The translations under genes were made by a program, and so were the position numbers. From sequence record NC_073052.1: 44,804 bases of DNA, one strand, 5' to 3'. Position 1 is the stretch's first letter. The number at the start of each line of letters is the position of its first letter. Below are positions 5,079 to 44,804 of this stretch, piece after piece. The notes under the pieces are model-generated. The model was given only the letters and a program-made list of their open reading frames with translations, was not told the origin of the DNA and did not search any database. Source of the stretch: Escherichia phage JLBYU60.

Positions 5079-5843
5079 TTAGCGAGGAATGCCGCAAATC
5101 TCGTTGAGTGTTTTCACATCCAGCGCCACCGCCGTGGATTTTGGCTTGTCCGGGTACGGGATGAATTGCTCAACTTCAGGCCATGCCTTGATCAGCTTCT
5201 TATCGGTATTGTGCATATCCAGCACGCCGGTAACAGTTAGTTTGAACGCGTCATACTTAGCCCGCAACTCACGGCGGGCCTTGTCGTTACGGTCCAGGCG
5301 CTTGCAGAAATCGTGGTCCGCAGGGTAGTCTATGCGACCGCGTGGCTTATAGATCGGCAGCGATTTTCCGTCCTTGTCCACTTCACACACCGAAGCCAGC
5401 ATAACTTCCTCGAACCCCGGTACGATATCGCCGAGATCGGGAGATAGCTTATTCATGTATTTATATTCCCAGTATCCGCGATGTACGCGGTATTGGTAAC
5501 CGTCACCGCTCAAGGACAAGGTGCGAACGTTTCCGCCTGCGTTGATTTCGAAAGTGGCGTCGTAAACGCTGCCGATACCTTTCGGGCGGTCGGTGTTATA
5601 ACTATACGTCGCCTTGTTGGTGTATACGCAAACGCCGTACATCTGCGACGGGTCATCGCCGATTGCTTCGATGCGCGCAAGTAGCTCGGCGAACGTGCGA
5701 ATGCCTTCCGGCATACAGTCAAGCGTGATTGCGTACGCCAGATCGCGTGAGTCCATCATGATTTGTTTGGCTTCGGTTGCGATTTCGTGGTCGCGCAGGA
5801 TGTTAGCCAGAATCTGATTTTTAATGTCTTTCGTCAGTCTCAT
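5079..5843 (-). CDS. Hypothetical protein (accessory gene antisense to structural block)
   Basis: 254-aa ORF with ATG and RBS GAGGA; convergent with the spanin genes across a bidirectional terminator; no recognisable motifs. Confidence 0.6.
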   Translation of the reverse strand: MRLTKDIKNQILANILRDHEIATEAKQIMMDSRDLAYAITLDCMPEGIRTFAELLARIEAIGDDPSQMYGVCVYTNKATYSYNTDRPKGIGSVYDATFEINAGGNVRTLSLSGDGYQYRVHRGYWEYKYMNKLSPDLGDIVPGFEEVMLASVCEVDKDGKSLPIYKPRGRIDYPADHDFCKRLDRNDKARRELRAKYDAFKLTVTGVLDMHNTDKKLIKAWPEVEQFIPYPDKPKSTAVALDVKTLNEICGIPR

Positions 5844-25277: not shown

Positions 25278-25748
25278 TTATTGGTTGCAAGTGAATTTTG
25301 CAAGATTCACAGAATAAATATGCGGGACCAGTTCTTCACACGCCCGTTTGATGGCGGCGATGTTCTTCGCGCAGTCGTCAATGATGACCAGTTCGTTAAC
25401 TTCTGCATAGCACACCAGGCCAAATACGGAACGGGCCTTGTACTCTGGCGGCGGCGTGTCATCAAGCATATGGCGTAAGAACAGACGACCTTTCGGGAAT
25501 CTATCCAATTGCTCTTTCGTTGACTCCCAGCAATCTGACTGGCGGTTTGACAGGTACGCAATGTCGAAGCCCTGTTTAGCGTACATGCGCAATAACGGCA
25601 GCATGTCATAATTAATGTCTTCGCGGACGTGGGCCTTATGCCACTTCGCCCAAAACGTTGATTTAGTCTTGATCCCCGGAACTAGGTCGTCGCGCACACT
25701 GCTTGACCCGTTGATAACGCCATCTAAATCGCAAATCAGTAGTTTCAT
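25278..25748 (-). CDS. HAD-superfamily phosphatase (nucleotidase / polynucleotide phosphatase-like)
   Basis: 156 aa; HAD motif I LICDLDGV and motif IV VIIDD. Confidence 0.65.
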   Translation of the reverse strand: MKLLICDLDGVINGSSSVRDDLVPGIKTKSTFWAKWHKAHVREDINYDMLPLLRMYAKQGFDIAYLSNRQSDCWESTKEQLDRFPKGRLFLRHMLDDTPPPEYKARSVFGLVCYAEVNELVIIDDCAKNIAAIKRACEELVPHIYSVNLAKFTCNQ

Positions 25749-25922: not shown

Positions 25923-26432
25923 TCATCCACGACGCGAGGACTTCGGTCGACGACTAAGATATTCATTTAATTCACCTTCGCTCATTATTTCGATTTGTGC
26001 GCTGCCGTTTGGCGGCACTTCTTCAAAGATTATCAATTGCTGGCACTTGTTGTTACTCGGCCCGACCTTACCGGTGACGGCGTGTATAAACCGGATCCGC
26101 CAGTCCAGCAAAATAATCAGGTTTGCAGTCTTCCTGGCCAGCTTCGCCCACTTCGTCGACGTGTCCTGATTCAGTAGCATGACCGTCCGGCGTCCGTGCG
26201 CTGCGCACTCTACCCACGGCAGCGGATCGGAATACGGCGGATTGCACCACTTCCACCCTTTCAACTCGGACCAGTCCACATCAAGCGCGCTGTGTTCCGC
26301 CGTGAAGTAACGCGGTAGCAGATGATTGGCGTCGCTTGCCGCCATATCGTAACGGAATAGGTATTTCCGACGAAGCGGTTTAAATAAAGCTGGCGGCGTG
26401 CGCCAGCTATCTTTTTGCTCATTCTCCGTCAT
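25923..26432 (-). CDS. DNA N6-adenine methyltransferase (phage Dam family)
   Basis: 169 aa; N-terminal WRTPPALF and catalytic WCNPPYS (NPPY motif IV), characteristic of small phage Dam methyltransferases. Confidence 0.8.
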   Translation of the reverse strand: MTENEQKDSWRTPPALFKPLRRKYLFRYDMAASDANHLLPRYFTAEHSALDVDWSELKGWKWCNPPYSDPLPWVECAAHGRRTVMLLNQDTSTKWAKLARKTANLIILLDWRIRFIHAVTGKVGPSNNKCQQLIIFEEVPPNGSAQIEIMSEGELNEYLSRRPKSSRRG

Positions 26433-26877
26433 AGTCGGGATCTATCGCATACAGGGCGGTTTTCTTGCCACTGGATAGCACGCGTTGGACTCGGGATAGC
26501 TCCGCCCTACTGAGCGGTCGGCTATCGGAATAGTAGCTGCCGTTTGCACGCCACGCTATACGCACCAGTCCTTTCCGCGGGATCGAAGACTGGCTGCCCT
26601 TCGGACGGACGTACTCCTCGGCCAGTTTGCAATGCTCGCGCAGACCTTCGGCAGTGATGCGGTTTAGCGCGACGGTGGTTGTGTACCCGGTGCGCTGCAT
26701 AATACCCATCAACTCATACAGCAGTTCGAAGCGCTCCTCTAACTCCTTGCGCATCTTTTCCTCGCCTTCATAGCTCGCCATGTAGGTATCCGCCAGCGCG
26801 TTCGCCCGTTCGACCTGTTCGCGGGCTTCGAGGCATTGCGCGGCCCAGTAATTTTTCTCTTCTTGTAAAATTTTCAT
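26419..26877 (-). CDS. Hypothetical protein
   Basis: 152-aa ORF; two TTGGTTGCA motifs and a sigma70-like promoter upstream; overlaps Dam start by 14 nt. Confidence 0.5.
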   Translation of the reverse strand: MKILQEEKNYWAAQCLEAREQVERANALADTYMASYEGEEKMRKELEERFELLYELMGIMQRTGYTTTVALNRITAEGLREHCKLAEEYVRPKGSQSSIPRKGLVRIAWRANGSYYSDSRPLSRAELSRVQRVLSSGKKTALYAIDPDYDGE

Positions 26878-29890: not shown

Positions 29891-30169
29891 TTAAGCGACC
29901 AAATCAGCAACCAATAAATCGCAGTCGACTATGTTGTCAATAACGCGAACGTTAGCACCGCGGCGGGCCATCCGCTCATGTTCGCGTACCTGGTGCGGCT
30001 TCGGTTTTCCACCGGGGCGCTTCACTTCGACGAACACTATTTTGCCGTTGATGATGATAATCAGGTCGGGCGCACCTGCGCGCCCCTCCCATGCCAGTTT
30101 TCGGCAGAATCCGCCTACCTCTTTCACCCGTCGCATCAGGTGACTTTGTATCTTGCCTTCTGGTGTCAT
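29891..30169 (-). CDS. VRR-NUC domain nuclease
   Basis: 92 aa from ATG 30169 with RBS AAGGA; core GAPDLIIIINGKIVFVEVKRPGGKPKPHQ typical of VRR-NUC (PD-(D/E)xK) proteins; start ATGA-overlaps HNH gene stop. Confidence 0.65.
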   Translation of the reverse strand: MTPEGKIQSHLMRRVKEVGGFCRKLAWEGRAGAPDLIIIINGKIVFVEVKRPGGKPKPHQVREHERMARRGANVRVIDNIVDCDLLVADLVA

Positions 30170-30768
30170 TGTCGGCTTTTCCTTACGGCAGCGATGGCAG
30201 GTCCGATAAACTTCTTCATTTCGTCCGGGGTAAACCGATCCCCGCGGGCTATGTTGCACTCTACGCAGCACGGCACGCAGTTATCTTTCGTATGGCCTAC
30301 TGCGTTGTCGAGTCGGTCCGCGCCATTGTCGCCGGTGAATCCGCAGTATGCGCACGGCTGAGAAGTAAGGCGCAGCACGTCCTCTGTAGTAAGGTCGGTG
30401 TTTAGCCCCTTCCTTTCGTCTGCCTTACGGTACTGAAAGAGTTTATAGTAAGCGCGGATCTCTGGTGTCCGGTGGTTGTACTCGCGGCGTGACTTATTAG
30501 CGCACGATCGGCATTCTTTACGAATATGTGACCCGTTTGCTTGGCTTCCTGGCCGGAAGTTTTCCGGCGTGAGCGGCTTGCGCTCACCGCACGTACGACA
30601 TGTTACGATCTCCCCGGTGTACTCTCGCCATACTTCTCTCGGCGGCGCGCCTCTTTCCTTATCCCGTCTCTCTTTCTTATATGCCGCCATGCATTTGGCG
30701 CACCACGACTGGCCCTTGTTGAAAGCGGACTCATCTTTACCCGTATTACAACGCCCACAATGTTTCAT
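30166..30768 (-). CDS. HNH endonuclease with N-terminal zinc-ribbon repeats
   Basis: 200 aa from ATG 30768 with RBS GAGGTG; C-terminal HNH core CAYCGFTGDNGADRLDNAVGHTKDNCVPCCVECN; two CxxC...CxxC modules at the N-terminus. Confidence 0.7.
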   Translation of the reverse strand: MKHCGRCNTGKDESAFNKGQSWCAKCMAAYKKERRDKERGAPPREVWREYTGEIVTCRTCGERKPLTPENFRPGSQANGSHIRKECRSCANKSRREYNHRTPEIRAYYKLFQYRKADERKGLNTDLTTEDVLRLTSQPCAYCGFTGDNGADRLDNAVGHTKDNCVPCCVECNIARGDRFTPDEMKKFIGPAIAAVRKSRQ

Positions 30769-37274: not shown

Positions 37275-37604
37275 ATGAATATCAAAGAAGCAATTGAAGT
37301 GTTATCTAATGCTATCCGCGGCGAGGCGGGTAAATCCTGGTATTACACAAATGCGGTGGATACTCTGTTATTTGAAGTGTCCAGGTTATCGCGTGCTGAG
37401 AAGGAGCTTACCGCCAAACTGGAATTACTGAATGGAACGGCAGCAAGCAAGCTGCAAAAACACAATGAAGAAATGGAAGAATACAAAAAGCAGGTTATCC
37501 GTTTGCGCGCCGAGGGCAAATCTTGGGCGATGATTGCCGAGTTGACCGGAATTAATCAGAGCACAGTGCGCTCCTGGGTACGCAATAATAAAACTTCTAA
37601 GTAA
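37275..37604 (+). CDS. HTH DNA-binding protein (putative early transcriptional regulator)
   Basis: 109 aa with RBS AGGAGA; C-terminal HTH-like segment SWAMIAELTGINQSTVRSWVRNN; first + strand gene after a 400-bp divergent intergenic region with sigma70-like promoter. Confidence 0.6.
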   Translation: MNIKEAIEVLSNAIRGEAGKSWYYTNAVDTLLFEVSRLSRAEKELTAKLELLNGTAASKLQKHNEEMEEYKKQVIRLRAEGKSWAMIAELTGINQSTVRSWVRNNKTSK

Positions 37605-40350: not shown

Positions 40351-40393
40351 TATTGGTTGCACCCTGCCTGGCGCCCTGCTATATTGGTTGCAC
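40351..40393 (+). promoter_or_regulatory. Putative sigma70-like promoter with duplicated TATTGGTTGCAC elements
   Basis: -35 TTGCAC (40357-40362), 17-bp spacer, -10 TATATT (40380-40385) preceded by TG-like extension; second TTGGTTGCACACCAA copy spans the predicted start site; gene starts at 40414. Confidence 0.5.
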
Positions 40394-40413: not shown

Positions 40414-40719
40414 ATGAAAGTATTAATCTGGAATTACACAATGGCAGTGGCGAAGCTGTACGAAGCGAAACACACAAACGGCAACGCAGACGACGCGCGC
40501 CAGGTTGTCATCCTGGCCCAGCAGGGAATCATGAACGCGTTCGACGATATGTTTGCCAGCCTGGACGAACTGGAACCGCTGCGCGTGGCGATCTGCGAAT
40601 ATGCGATGGCATTTGCCCGTGAACGCCTGGCGTATCGCTTCGGGATCGGCGAGACGGCAGTGACAAACGTCGCCCGGATTAAAGCCCAGCGTGAGCTATT
40701 CGCCCAGCTTGCGAAATAA
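40414..40719 (+). CDS. Hypothetical protein
   Basis: 101-aa ORF with RBS AAGAGGA, directly downstream of a sigma70-like promoter (TTGCAC-17-TATATT). Confidence 0.5.
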   Translation: MKVLIWNYTMAVAKLYEAKHTNGNADDARQVVILAQQGIMNAFDDMFASLDELEPLRVAICEYAMAFARERLAYRFGIGETAVTNVARIKAQRELFAQLAK

Positions 40720-43350: not shown

Positions 43351-43512
43351 ATGTTAAAAAGCATTCTTGATCATAACGCCGACGCGCTCGCCGCGCTGGC
43401 TAAAACCGAAGACCCAGGCGCTCGCGCCATTATCGCGGACACTATCAGTCATGCTGGCGTATTTGACGCGAAGCTGCCGAGTCCGCCACCGCCCGCAGAG
43501 ACTGAAGAGTAA
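43351..43512 (+). CDS. Small hypothetical protein
   Basis: 53 aa from ATG 43351 with RBS GAGGAG; followed by rho-independent terminator. Confidence 0.4.
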   Translation: MLKSILDHNADALAALAKTEDPGARAIIADTISHAGVFDAKLPSPPPPAETEE

Positions 43513-43519
43513 ACCACCA

Positions 43520-43546
43520 AGCCCGGAATTATCCGGGCTTTTTTAT
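43520..43546 (+). terminator. Rho-independent terminator
   Basis: AGCCCGGA-atta-TCCGGGCT followed by TTTTTT. Confidence 0.8.
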
Positions 43547-43607
43547 TTATTGCCCCAGTACCGTGGTATATTGCATCCAGGTCATCTCAATCTGGAAGTA
43601 AATTAAT

Positions 43608-44750
43608 ATGCACCCGCAAACTAAAATCACCGACGAGCAATTGATCGCCGAGTTGCAATCCGGCACTACCTCGAAAGATATTGCGAAGAAATACGGGATT
43701 GCCCTACGCAATGTTTATATGCGCAAAGCCCGCCTGTCGAAAAAAGGCATTGGACACGGCAACGATGCCGTAATACGCAAGCGCGTTGCCGATGGGTTTG
43801 GGGTTAAGCGCGTATCGGCCCTGGTGCGTGGCAATGGCGAAGAGGTCATGTCGTGGGTCATCACTGAGCAGGACAAAGAGCGCCAACTCGAAGCCATGCG
43901 CGCTGTTGTCGAGGGTATGAACAGCGAAATCACACCGGCAGCGCCAGTAAAAGCCCCGCCAGTACCGATCCAGGCGCTCGACTTGCTCAACCTGTACACC
44001 GTGTCAGACTTCCACCTGGGCATGTTGGCATGGGGCGAGGAGACTGGCGAAGACTGGGATATGGCGATCGCCGAAGACCTGTTCTACCGCTGGTTTGTCG
44101 AAGCCTTCGCACGCGCCCCGGACGCAGGCACTGCCGTAATTAATATCCTCGGTGATATGGTCCACTTTGATAGCCTTGATGCCGTCACACCGGCCAGCGG
44201 TCACGTACTGGACGCGGATACCCGCTACCAGAAGCTGGTCCGCTACATGATTCGCATGGTGCGCAACGTCGTCGAACTGGCGCTGCAAAAACACCACAAA
44301 GTCAAACTGCTAATCGTCCAGGGAAATCATGACGAGTCGGGTATGATTTGGCTGGCTGAGATGTTCAATACTCTGTACGAGAACGAGCCGCGCGTCGATG
44401 TGGATACGTCCCCGGACGTCTACAAAATGGTGCAGCACGGTAAGACCACGCTATTCTTCCACCACGGGCACAAAGCGCGATTCGATGCTATCGAGCAGGT
44501 TATGATTTCTAAATTCAGACAGGCTTTCGGATCCAGTGAGTACAGCTACGCGCACGTAGGCCACTTGCACCACCAGAAGATTGTAGAATCCCGCAACATG
44601 ATTGTTGAACAGCACCGGACGCTCGCAGCGAAAGACGCCTACGCCAGTCGTGGCGGTTGGATGTCCGGTCGCAGCGCAAACGTCATCACCTATAGCGCCA
44701 ACTACGGCGAAGTAGCGCGCTTAACCATTAGCCCGGAAATGTTGAAGTAA
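43608..44750 (+). CDS. HTH-domain fused metallophosphoesterase (calcineurin-like phosphatase/nuclease fold)
   Basis: 380 aa; N-terminal HTH-like TSKDIAKKYGIALRNVYMRKARL; metallophosphatase motifs GDMVHFD, GNHDE, HHGH, GHLHH. Confidence 0.75.
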   Translation: MHPQTKITDEQLIAELQSGTTSKDIAKKYGIALRNVYMRKARLSKKGIGHGNDAVIRKRVADGFGVKRVSALVRGNGEEVMSWVITEQDKERQLEAMRAVVEGMNSEITPAAPVKAPPVPIQALDLLNLYTVSDFHLGMLAWGEETGEDWDMAIAEDLFYRWFVEAFARAPDAGTAVINILGDMVHFDSLDAVTPASGHVLDADTRYQKLVRYMIRMVRNVVELALQKHHKVKLLIVQGNHDESGMIWLAEMFNTLYENEPRVDVDTSPDVYKMVQHGKTTLFFHHGHKARFDAIEQVMISKFRQAFGSSEYSYAHVGHLHHQKIVESRNMIVEQHRTLAAKDAYASRGGWMSGRSANVITYSANYGEVARLTISPEMLK

Positions 44751-44804
44751 CGGCAACCCATAAGCCTCCCAGCCTGCCGATTTGGTGGGCTTTTTTGTGC
44801 CTGT

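What the first reader, a model, noticed from the sequence alone, without database searches (positions are those of the whole stretch)
43608..44750. Unusual fusion of an HTH domain to a calcineurin-like metallophosphoesterase
The last gene combines an N-terminal HTH-like segment with a complete metallophosphatase motif set (GDxxHxD, GNHDE, HHGH, GHLHH). Phage metallophosphatases (for example lambda-type protein phosphatases) normally lack a DNA-binding domain; a DNA-targeted phosphoesterase could act as a nuclease (SbcD/Mre11-like fold), be involved in DNA end processing, or be a regulator with enzymatic output.
Basis: partly seen in the sequence, partly recalled or inferred. Interest (0 to 1): 0.45.

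Follow-up and report, generated by a model that had tools for sequence, protein, structure and literature searches.

The report
HTH-tethered Mre11-like phosphoesterase of siphophages
The last gene of this Dhillonvirus genome really does encode a DNA-binding helix-turn-helix fused to a complete Mre11/SbcD-like metallophosphoesterase, but this is the normal form of a large, uncharacterised phage family (also in T1), and it is a plausible, untested candidate for the enzyme that degrades host DNA.

Summary
ORF 43608-44750 (+, 380 aa) is a real gene under purifying selection. It has an N-terminal three-helix HTH (residues 9-45), a beta-hairpin/helix module (64-105) and a metallophosphoesterase (MPE) domain (121-380) with all five motifs.

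"Unusual" is not supported.
- The window is a complete Dhillonvirus genome.
- The protein matches PHROG 704 end to end (E 1.9e-161).
- Relatives occur in 2,063 of 50,697 phage records, including T1 ST16 and TLS gp66.
- 141 of the 150 best 50%-identity representatives are at least 350 aa.

The gene is its own transcription unit: a terminator on each side and a conserved extended -10 element upstream. In other lineages it ends the early DNA-metabolism region. It often lies next to a T5-Dmp-like dNMP phosphatase, a dNMP kinase or a dNTP pyrophosphohydrolase, or just upstream of Q.

Best reading: an HTH-tethered, Rad50-independent DNase. It may be the unidentified host-DNA-degrading function of T1-like phages. 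No activity has been tested.

The parts
43519..43540 (+). Intrinsic terminator (AAGCCCGGA-ATTA-TCCGGGCTT followed by a T run). It ends the lysis operon and insulates the gene upstream.
   Evidence: Terminator scan; perfect 9-nt inverted repeat.
43561..43573 (+). Conserved element CCGTGGTATATTG, read as an extended -10 promoter: TG at 43564-43565, hexamer TATATT at 43567-43572. Promoter function is inferred, not shown.
   Evidence: It is kept in all seven Dhillonvirus relatives compared (some read CCGTGATATATTG). In three of them the 100-nt upstream region is only 21-39% identical in ungapped comparison. The consensus scan did not report it because there is no good -35. It is not enriched elsewhere in the genome: 3 matches against 1.7 expected.
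43594..43598 (+). Shine-Dalgarno-like GGAAG, 9 nt before the ATG. An in-frame TAA lies at 43599-43601.
   Evidence: Read directly from the sequence.
43608..44750 (+). Coding sequence of the HTH-metallophosphoesterase: 380 aa plus stop.
   Evidence: ORF list; PHROG 704 E 1.9e-161 over residues 5-380; purifying selection along the whole length.
43632..43742 (+). N-terminal three-helix helix-turn-helix (residues 9-45). The predicted recognition helix is 33-45.
   Evidence: AF2 helices 9-17, 22-29 and 33-45, block-mean pLDDT 85-91 over residues 11-40. HTH Pfam families hit many homologues. The family profile aligns residues 8-59 to GerE 1fse at E 0.16. This region evolves faster than the enzyme domain: 20-24% against 44-57% identity to the query.
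43797..43922 (+). Beta-hairpin (residues 64-88, with the conserved QWVK motif, W83) plus a helix (90-105). This module is specific to the family; its role is unknown.
   Evidence: AF2 secondary structure. S70, G77 and W83 are invariant in alignment A2.
43968..44747 (+). Calcineurin-like metallophosphoesterase domain (residues 121-380).
44007..44015 (+). Motif I, D134-F-H136, within SDFHLG. Predicted metal ligands.
   Evidence: Invariant in alignments A1 and A2. E. coli SbcD has SDWHLG.
44151..44171 (+). Motif II, G182-D183-M-V-H186-F-D188. D183 is the predicted bridging aspartate.
   Evidence: G182, D183 and D188 are invariant and H186 is at least 90% conserved in A1. In A2, H186 and D188 are invariant and D183 is at least 90% conserved.
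44187..44225 (+). Family-specific signature TPASGHVLDADTR (residues 194-206), following motif II.
   Evidence: T194, P195, D202, D204 and R206 are invariant in A2. I do not recall this signature from other metallophosphoesterase families; that comparison was not tested here.
44322..44336 (+). Motif III, G239-N240-H241-D242-E243.
   Evidence: N240 and H241 are invariant.
44460..44471 (+). Motif IV, H285-H286-G287-H288.
   Evidence: H286 is invariant in A1. All four residues are invariant in A2.
44559..44573 (+). Motif V, G318-H319-L-H321-H322.
   Evidence: G318 and H321 are invariant.
44771..44791 (+). Intrinsic terminator after the gene, before the small terminase gene (55-627 in the circularly permuted map).
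   Evidence: Terminator scan. Gene order in phage Gluttony: endolysin, small ORF, this gene, terminase.

Best explanation
The gene encodes a stand-alone, Rad50-independent, two-metal phosphodiesterase of Mre11/SbcD-like fold. I infer that it acts on DNA, as a nuclease, and that its own N-terminal helix-turn-helix brings it to DNA.

Proposed mechanism:
- The HTH (res 9-45) docks on duplex DNA.
- A Pro/Ala-rich linker and a beta-hairpin/helix module connect it to the catalytic domain.
- In the catalytic domain, D134/H136, D183, N240, H286 and H319/H321 hold a two-metal centre (probably Mn2+) that activates water to cut the phosphodiester backbone. H241 stabilises the transition state.

Proposed setting:
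- It is made from its own host-type promoter, as a unit insulated from the lysis and packaging operons on either side.
- It belongs functionally with the early or delayed-early DNA and nucleotide-metabolism genes.
- The most likely biological role is degradation or processing of DNA to feed the phage nucleotide pool. In T1-like phages that would be host-chromosome breakdown.

Shown here: the architecture, the conserved catalytic residues, the fold class, the transcription-unit anatomy and the gene neighbourhoods.
Inferred: the DNA substrate, metal use, timing of expression and biological role.
For: Active enzyme: all five metallophosphoesterase motifs are present, and the predicted metal-binding residues are invariant or at least 90% conserved across relatives of 33-57% identity. 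This argues for an active enzyme, not a pseudo-enzyme.

Fold class:
- The AF2 model has pLDDT 83.8.
- Motif I, SDFHLG, matches SbcD's SDWHLG.

HTH: it is family-wide and evolves about twice as fast as the enzyme domain, as expected for a targeting module.

Neighbourhoods in 21 lineages with under 80% identity:
- A T5-Dmp-like 5'-dNMP phosphatase (phrog_415) lies directly downstream in 4 lineages.
- It is followed by a dNMP kinase (phrog_139) or a dATP/dGTP pyrophosphohydrolase (phrog_801).
- In 4 lambdoid lineages the gene is the last gene of the nin-type early region, directly upstream of a Q antiterminator.

Precedents in other phages:
- T5 A1, a predicted metallophosphoesterase, is necessary and sufficient for host DNA degradation (bioRxiv 10.64898/2026.04.02.716235). 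In the T5 record A1 lies two genes from dmp.
- Mycobacteriophage Gp48, also a metallophosphoesterase, damages host DNA (PMC12287305).
- T1 and TLS degrade the host genome and reuse the nucleotides, and the gene responsible is unidentified (PMC11447400). Both carry this gene: T1 ST16 at 45% identity over the full length, and TLS gp66.

Transcription unit: the gene is bracketed by terminators and preceded by a conserved extended -10 element.
Against: - No member of the family has been assayed, so the substrate is purely inferred.
- No characterised metallophosphoesterase is detectable by sequence. The profile search of PDB found none. hhalign probabilities are 2% for SbcD and 15% for T5 A1.
- There is no capping domain and no Rad50/SbcC partner, both of which Mre11/SbcD need for robust activity.
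- The nucleotide-enzyme neighbours fit a nucleotide substrate as well as a DNA substrate.
- In the window itself the gene sits between lysis and packaging genes, and its timing of expression is unknown.
- How phage DNA would escape such a nuclease is unexplained.
Confidence: 0.55

Rival explanations
1. It is a nucleotide-level phosphodiesterase or phosphatase. It would act on dNTP/dNMP pools, oligonucleotides or cyclic-nucleotide immune signals rather than on polymeric DNA. The HTH would then serve only for autoregulation or localisation.
For: - The recurrent neighbours are nucleotide-pool enzymes: Dmp-like dNMP phosphatase, dNMP kinase and dATP/dGTP pyrophosphohydrolase.
- Small-molecule phosphodiesterases (MJ0936, YfcE, Rv0805, GpdQ) score nearly as well as Mre11 in the fold searches.
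- An Acb2/Tad1-like sponge gene lies 1.4 kb downstream in one lineage.
Against: - The DNA-binding HTH is conserved at the family level.
- The top structural matches are nucleases.
- There is no match in the PADLOC defence-system library, apart from a spurious DpdE hit at E 0.014.
- I know of no anti-signalling phosphodiesterase with this architecture (my own knowledge).
Confidence: 0.15
2. It is a nucleic-acid end-healing enzyme: a 2',3'-cyclic phosphodiesterase or 3'-phosphatase on broken DNA or RNA ends. This would resemble the metallophosphoesterase domain of Clostridium thermocellum Pnkp, working with kinase and ligase functions.
For: - PHROG and Pfam label the neighbouring HAD protein as a polynucleotide-kinase-phosphatase domain (HAD_PNKP E 1e-14 to 4e-20).
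- Metallophosphoesterase domains do carry out end healing in CthPnkp (PMC2190708, abstract).
- The window has a small ORF whose PHROG family (phrog_10530) is labelled DNA ligase, at 26419-26877.
Against: - The HAD neighbour falls in the same PHROG as T5 Dmp, a dNMP phosphatase.
- Its partner is a dNMP kinase (phrog_139), not a polynucleotide kinase.
Confidence: 0.1
3. It is primarily a transcription regulator. The HTH would bind phage promoters for autoregulation or for the early-to-late switch, and the phosphoesterase domain would act as a sensor or effector.
For: - The HTH is of a type found in LuxR/GerE, sigma-70 region 4 and LysR regulators.
- The gene lies at the early-late junction in many phages.
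- In three Dhillonvirus relatives an 8-9 nt inverted repeat (GGACCGTG/CACGGTCC) brackets the gene's own -10 element.
Against: - The catalytic residues are invariant, so enzymatic activity is under selection.
- A bona fide Q antiterminator lies immediately downstream in 4 lineages, so this gene is not the late regulator there.
- The promoter-associated motif is not enriched in the genome.
- The inverted repeat is degenerate in the window itself.
Confidence: 0.1
4. It is a protein phosphatase, functionally equivalent to lambda NinI (lambda phosphatase), whose genomic slot it occupies.
For: In 4 lambdoid lineages the gene sits directly upstream of Q. That is exactly where lambda carries ninI.
Against: - The PPP signatures (GDxHG, GDxVDRG, GNHE) are absent.
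- hhalign probability against lambda NinI is 0.4%.
- A protein phosphatase has no obvious use for an HTH.
Confidence: 0.05

Closest known systems
Mre11 / SbcD double-strand-break nucleases (Mre11-Rad50, SbcCD)
   Same: - Motif I (SDxHLG), motif III (GNHD) and motif V (GHxH) are shared with E. coli SbcD.
   Different: - There is no capping domain: the protein ends with the metallophosphoesterase core at residue 380.
- No Rad50/SbcC ATPase gene is in the genome or the neighbourhoods.
- It carries an N-terminal HTH and hairpin module instead.
- Similarity is not detectable by sequence: hhalign probability 2%, and no PDB hit with the family profile.
Bacteriophage T5 A1 (pre-early protein, predicted metallophosphatase, required and sufficient for host DNA degradation)
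   Same: - It is a phage-encoded stand-alone metallophosphoesterase with all five motifs recognisable by eye.
- Motif III shares a local signature, NHDxxxSxWL.
- In T5, A1 lies two genes from dmp. Here Dmp-like genes lie directly downstream in 4 lineages.
- T5 A1 works with a separate DNA-binding protein, A2, according to the record annotation. Here DNA binding is fused to the enzyme.
   Different: - There is no significant sequence relationship: hhalign probability 15%, hmmsearch 2-3 bits. The PHROG differs (1745 against 704).
- A1 is 556 aa, with an unrelated N-terminal half.
- A1's in vitro nuclease activity is itself still unproven (bioRxiv 10.64898/2026.04.02.716235).
Mycobacteriophage cluster-A metallophosphoesterase (A10ZJ24 Gp48)
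   Same: It is a phage metallophosphoesterase with five motifs and phosphodiesterase activity. It is expressed early, is toxic to the host and damages host genomic DNA (PMC12287305).
   Different: The paper describes no HTH. The sequence relationship was not tested here. The host and phage lineage are different.
Lambda NinI (lambda protein phosphatase, PPP family)
   Same: It belongs to the same superfamily. It occupies the same genomic slot, the last nin-region gene before Q, as the lambdoid members of this family.
Archaeal PolD DP1 and eukaryotic B-subunits of replicative polymerases
   Different: There is no OB fold and no partner polymerase. According to the TLS paper (PMC11447400), T1 and TLS have no apparent DNA polymerase gene, yet both keep this gene. 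The name comes from automatic transfer, not from evidence.

Membership tests
Calcineurin-like metallophosphoesterase superfamily (Pfam PF00149) | Five motifs: DxH, GD, GNH[DE], H, GHxH | tested here: met
   D134/H136, G182-D183, G239-N240-H241-D242, H286 and G318-H319-x-H321 are present. All are invariant or at least 90% conserved in relatives.
Calcineurin-like metallophosphoesterase superfamily (Pfam PF00149) | Score above the curated Pfam threshold, and the characteristic metallophosphoesterase fold | tested here: met
   [not shown]
PHROG 704 (annotated 'DNA repair exonuclease') | Full-length match to the family profile | tested here: met
   E 1.9e-161. Residues 5-380 align to profile positions 2-390 of 390.
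Mre11/SbcD nuclease family | Metallophosphoesterase nuclease core with DxHLG, GDxxH/D, GNHD and GHxH | tested here: met
   [not shown]
Mre11/SbcD nuclease family | C-terminal capping domain that gates the active site | tested here: not met
   [not shown]
Mre11/SbcD nuclease family | Adjacent Rad50/SbcC ABC-ATPase partner | tested here: not met
   None of the large ORFs scanned in the window is a Rad50/SbcC-type ATPase. The top Pfam families among 139 neighbouring ORFs from 14 lineages include no ABC ATPase.
Mre11/SbcD nuclease family | Homology detectable at sequence level | tested here: not met
   hhalign against E. coli SbcD gives probability 2%. The family-profile search of all PDB sequences finds no metallophosphoesterase at E <= 10.
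PPP protein phosphatases (lambda NinI type) | GDxHG, GDxVDRG and GNHE motifs, and the PPP fold | tested here: not met
   [not shown]
T5 A1-like host-DNA-degradation proteins (PHROG 1745) | Sequence homology to A1 | tested here: not met
   hhalign probability is 15%, covering motif III only. hmmsearch gives 2-3 bits. A1 belongs to PHROG 1745, not 704.
T5 A1-like host-DNA-degradation proteins (PHROG 1745) | Causes degradation of host DNA when expressed | not testable with these tools
   This needs expression or knock-out experiments.
Helix-turn-helix DNA-binding domains (LuxR/GerE, sigma-70 region 4, LysR-type) | Three-helix bundle with a helix-turn-helix | tested here: met
   AF2 helices at 9-17, 22-29 and 33-45, block-mean pLDDT 85-91 over residues 11-40. 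Among the 127 aligned sequences, 59 hit HTH_1, 31 HTH_50 and 16 HTH_8. The query alone is sub-threshold: GerE 14.8 bits against a cut-off of 23.5.
Helix-turn-helix DNA-binding domains (LuxR/GerE, sigma-70 region 4, LysR-type) | Actual DNA binding, and its sequence specificity | not testable with these tools
   This needs gel-shift, DAP-seq or similar assays. A search for a repeated target motif found no enrichment.

The most novel reading that the evidence does not exclude
This HTH-metallophosphoesterase family (T1 ST16, TLS gp66, the Dhillonvirus gene in the window, and Jersey/Kagunavirus/Webervirus homologues) is the long-unidentified phage DNase that degrades the host chromosome in T1-like and related siphophages. 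It would be a Rad50-independent, HTH-tethered Mre11-like nuclease that supplies dNMPs to the adjacent Dmp and dNMP-kinase salvage enzymes. In effect it would be a single-polypeptide counterpart of the T5 A1 + A2 pair. Mutants in it would show the 1981 Roberts-Drexler high-transduction, no-host-degradation phenotype.
Probability: 0.25. Interest if true: 0.65.

Novelty: new member of a known kind. Interest (0 to 1): 0.38.

Why it matters
The gene itself is ordinary in distribution. It is a core gene of several abundant coliphage, Salmonella-phage and Klebsiella-phage genera that are widely used in phage-therapy collections, and it occurs in about 4% of sequenced phages. Yet no member has been characterised, and database names disagree: 'DNA repair exonuclease', 'oxidoreductase', 'winged HTH protein', 'proof-reading exonuclease', 'DNA polymerase II small subunit'.

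[quoted passage not shown] This family is a concrete candidate that is cheap to test.

If confirmed, it would do three things:
- It would show that an Mre11-type nuclease core can work without Rad50 when tethered by an HTH.
- It would explain nucleotide scavenging in these phages.
- It would identify a gene whose removal should raise generalized transduction. That matters for the safety assessment of therapeutic phages.

Tried and rejected
1. Homology to T5 A1. Only a motif-III patch aligns (hhalign probability 15%, hmmsearch 2-3 bits). I keep A1 as an analogue, not a relative.
2. Late-gene regulator replacing Q. This was suggested by the gene's position before the lysis genes in T1 and in metagenomic P22-like phages. 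I rejected it because a genuine Q gene lies directly downstream in 4 lineages.
3. Functional link to lysis. An endolysin lies within 2 kb in about 8 of 21 lineages, but not in Kagunavirus/Jersey, L005, L006 and others. This is better explained by the gene's position at the early-late junction.
4. Packaging accessory, because the gene lies next to the small terminase in the window. This adjacency is not conserved: Terminase_2 appears in only 2 of 139 neighbouring ORFs.
5. A regulon for the HTH. The conserved upstream motif CCGTGRTATATTG is not enriched in the genome.
6. Paralogy between this HTH and the 109-aa HTH protein at 37275-37604. BLAST finds no similarity.
7. Defence or anti-defence libraries. 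PADLOC gives only a spurious DpdE hit. The Dhillonvirus anti-Tmn paper concerns other genes. The STAND-sensor paper does not mention this protein.
8. Expression timing from Vibrio phage HH109 gp35, an early 'calcineurin-like phosphoesterase'. The Vp670 homologue is unrelated to this family (hhalign probability 0.2%).
9. Single-sequence AF2 model. It was too poor to use (pLDDT 44) and was replaced by the alignment-based model.
10. Tools that failed. The afdb50 fold library was unavailable. The search for related loci with the most diverse alignment failed, so A2 was used instead.
11. Literature searches for an HTH-metallophosphoesterase phage protein found no description.
Full report
**What the window is.** The 44.8-kb window is a complete genome of a Dhillonvirus, an HK578-like E. 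coli siphophage.
- The flagged region and the first 25 kb match about 155-159 deposited phages at 90-96% DNA identity.
- In the annotated relative Gluttony the local gene order is: holin, holin, endolysin, small ORF, this gene, small terminase, large terminase, portal.
- The rest of the genome encodes a family-A DNA polymerase, a helicase-primase, a second helicase, an exonuclease (phrog_69), a Gp2.5-like annealing protein and two methyltransferases. None of the large ORFs scanned is an SbcC/Rad50-type ATPase.

**Checking the observation.** ORF 43608-44750 (+) encodes 380 aa.
- In an alignment with 33 relatives of 33-48% identity, the invariant columns are D134, H136, G182, D183, D188, T194, L201, N240, H241, H286, G318 and H321. 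This set includes most of the predicted metal-binding and catalytic positions; H319 is at least 90% conserved.
  - An in-frame TAA lies three codons upstream of the ATG, and a GGAAG lies 9 nt before it.
  - PHROG 704 aligns from residue 5.
  - Within Dhillonvirus, codons 1-60 carry 12-23 synonymous but only 1-4 non-synonymous differences per comparison, the same pattern as the rest of the gene.
- The HTH is weak on the single sequence (GerE E 0.023, HTH_28 E 0.22) but clear at family level.
  - Among the 127 aligned sequences, 59 hit HTH_1, 31 HTH_50, 16 HTH_8 (best 6.4e-10), 11 GerE and 5 Sigma70_r4_2.
  - The family profile aligns residues 8-59 to the GerE structure 1fse (E 0.16).
  - AlphaFold2 with the 127-sequence alignment (mean pLDDT 83.8, pTM 0.70) gives helices at 9-17, 22-29 and 33-45, with block-mean pLDDT 85-91 over residues 11-40.

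**Architecture.** The model gives this order:
- HTH, residues 9-45, plus a fourth helix at 53-59.
- A beta-hairpin (64-88), carrying the conserved QWVK motif, plus a helix (90-105).
- A Pro/Ala-rich linker (106-120).
- The metallophosphoesterase (MPE) domain (121-380).

After motif II there is a family-specific signature, TPxSGHxLDADTR (194-206). Many Arg and Trp residues in the C-terminal part are invariant.

**How unusual is the fusion?** It is not unusual.
- An exhaustive HMMER scan of 1.84 billion representatives finds 4,710 clusters at 50% identity (1,137 at E <= 1e-30).
- Of the best 150, 141 are at least 350 aa. Motif I lies at residues 120-160 in 135 of them. 121 match a profile built from residues 1-60.
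- tblastn finds the gene in 2,063 of 50,697 phage records, 1,680 of them covering at least 80% of the query.
- These include T1 (ST16, 45% identity over residues 4-379), TLS (gp66), Jersey, SETP3, K1G, many Klebsiella phages, Pseudomonas phage Motto and Rhodobacter phage RcLkye (38% identity, residues 11-379, with an HTH at 14-47).
- Only remote relatives lack the N-terminal module, for example some Vibrio, Campylobacter, Bacillus and Flavobacterium phages.
- The HTH diverges about twice as fast as the enzyme: 20-24% against 44-57% identity to the query.

**Which kind of metallophosphoesterase?**
- Foldseek also puts Mre11 first, at E 1.5e-7.
- The ranking is shallow: LpxH, Vps29 and YfcE score 12.2-12.6. 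The safe statement is "Mre11/SbcD-like and clearly not PPP-like".
- The family is isolated at sequence level.
  - Pfam Metallophos is passed only just (22.4 against 21.5 bits).
  - Only 42 of the 127 aligned sequences hit it at E <= 0.01.
  - A family-profile search of all PDB sequences finds no MPE.
  - hhalign probabilities are 2% for E. coli SbcD, 0.4% for lambda NinI and 15% for T5 A1.
- Two defining features of Mre11/SbcD are absent: the capping domain and a Rad50/SbcC partner. I therefore do not file it as an Mre11/SbcD family member.

**Transcription unit.**
- Intrinsic terminators lie at 43519-43540 and 44771-44791.
- Between the first terminator and the ATG, the element CCGTG(G/A)TATATTG (43561-43573) is kept in all seven Dhillonvirus relatives compared. 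In three of them the 100-nt upstream region is only 21-39% identical in ungapped comparison.
- It reads as an extended -10 promoter (TGnTATATT). This is inference.
- The gene therefore looks like an insulated, self-contained unit placed between the lysis and packaging operons. That fits expression at a different time from its neighbours.
- In three relatives an 8-9 nt inverted repeat brackets this -10 element. In the window the repeat is degenerate.
- The motif is not enriched elsewhere in the genome.

**Genomic context across lineages.** I collected 21 lineages with under 80% MPE identity, and scanned their neighbours.
- In 4 lineages (Kagunavirus L019, L050, L058, L076) the next gene, or next but one, is a HAD phosphatase of phrog_415. 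This is the same PHROG as T5 Dmp, the deoxynucleoside-5'-monophosphatase, which matches at E 3.6e-57 over its full length.
- That gene is followed by a dNMP kinase (phrog_139; L019, L058) or a dATP/dGTP pyrophosphohydrolase (phrog_801; L050, L076). The pyrophosphohydrolase is also near the gene in Vibrio phage K137.
- In 4 lambdoid lineages (L052, L055, L079, L082) the gene is immediately followed by a Q antiterminator (Pfam Phage_antitermQ E 2.6e-11). It is thus the last gene of the nin-type delayed-early region, in the slot that lambda gives to ninI.
- An endolysin lies within 2 kb in about 8 lineages, including the window, T1, RcLkye and P22-like contigs. I attribute this to the gene's position at the early-late boundary.
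- In the window itself, the Dmp-like gene is elsewhere, at 25278-25748 on the minus strand (phrog_415 E 1.2e-30).

**Mechanism and role.** These features together point most economically to a DNA phosphodiesterase tethered to its substrate by the HTH:
- a catalytically intact MPE;
- a nuclease-like fold;
- a conserved DNA-binding module;
- a position among delayed-early DNA-metabolism genes;
- repeated adjacency to dNMP-handling enzymes.

There are literature precedents for stand-alone phage MPEs that attack host DNA.
- T5 A1 is necessary and sufficient for host DNA degradation (bioRxiv 10.64898/2026.04.02.716235). In the T5 record it lies two genes from dmp.
- Mycobacteriophage A10ZJ24 Gp48 has phosphodiesterase activity and damages host DNA (PMC12287305).
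- The 2024 TLS re-annotation states that T1 and TLS degrade the host genome and reuse the nucleotides. It says the responsible gene could not be identified, and lists this as an open question (PMC11447400). It names the TLS member of this family only as a 'proof-reading exonuclease'.

I therefore propose, at about 25% probability, that this family is that missing DNase. The general claim, an HTH-tethered DNA nuclease or phosphodiesterase in phage DNA metabolism, I hold at about 55%.

**Rivals.** A nucleotide or small-molecule phosphodiesterase, an end-healing enzyme, a transcription regulator and a protein phosphatase are laid out with their tests in the structured fields. The regulator and protein-phosphatase readings are the weakest, for two reasons: the catalytic residues are invariant and Q is present separately, and the fold is a poor match to PPP enzymes.

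**Verdict.**
- The feature is a well-populated, already catalogued (PHROG 704) but functionally unstudied phage family, not an oddity of this genome.
- The window's protein is 99% identical to deposited sequences.
- Its value lies in being a concrete, testable candidate for an explicitly open question in T1-like phage biology. The sequence itself is not novel.

Noticed in passing
window 5079-5843 (-): This is an Nmad5 (nucleotide-modification-associated domain 5) gene, Pfam E 7.6e-59. In Dhillonvirus, mutations in nmad5 let the phage escape the Tmn defence system (PMC11846954).
   Followed up: partly
window 25278-25748 (-): A 156-aa HAD phosphatase in the same PHROG (415) as T5 Dmp, the 5'-deoxyribonucleotidase (E 1.2e-30). 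In other phage lineages the homologous gene sits directly downstream of the HTH-metallophosphoesterase gene. PHROG labels the family 'polynucleotide kinase', which looks like a misnomer for these single-domain proteins.
   Followed up: partly
window 37275-37604 (+): A 109-aa protein with a C-terminal HTH (HTH_23 3e-07, Sigma70_r4_2 7e-07), directly upstream of the helicase-primase gene. It is annotated 'transposase' in phage Gluttony. It has no similarity to the HTH of the flagged gene.
   Followed up: partly
L014:4953-4978, L015:4459-4488, L017:4953-4978 (Dhillonvirus relatives); window 43558-43585: In three relatives an 8-9 nt inverted repeat (GGACCGTG ... CACGGTCC) brackets the conserved -10 element upstream of the gene. 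It could be an operator. In the window the repeat is degenerate.
   Followed up: partly
window 40374-40386 (+): A second TGnTATATTG-type element (CCCTGCTATATTG) lies just upstream of ORF 40414-40719, in the gap after the helicase-primase gene. It may be another extended -10 promoter.
   Followed up: no
window 29891-30271 (-): A small VRR-NUC nuclease-domain protein (Pfam E 1.7e-05) lies among the replication genes. It is another nuclease candidate in this genome.
   Followed up: no
Family level: phrog_20703 and phrog_20762; Shigella phage vB_SsoS_008 (H76); Roseobacter phage RDJL Phi 1: Separate PHROGs exist for the N-terminal (res 5-199) and C-terminal (res 264-378) parts of the protein. In some phages the gene appears as 2-3 adjacent pieces. 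This suggests recurrent splitting by frameshifts or mobile-element insertion.
   Followed up: no
L011:6857-7228 (Vibrio phage K137): This ORF is annotated 'endolysin'. By BLAST it matches the dATP/dGTP pyrophosphohydrolase-like ORFs of L050 and L076 (phrog_801; also phrog_5033, 'endolysin; inhibits RNA polymerase'). The record's annotation is probably wrong.
   Followed up: partly
L002:8565-8927 (also L003 and L004; metagenomic P22-like phage): An Acb2/Tad1-hairpin anti-defence sponge gene lies just after the lysis cassette, 1.4 kb downstream of the HTH-metallophosphoesterase homologue.
   Followed up: no
window 43351-43512 (+): A 53-aa ORF lies between the endolysin gene and the terminator, with no Pfam hit. 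It is conserved as a 'hypothetical protein' in relatives. The spanin-like genes of this phage group are annotated far away, after the head-morphogenesis gene. That is an odd arrangement for a lysis cassette.
   Followed up: no
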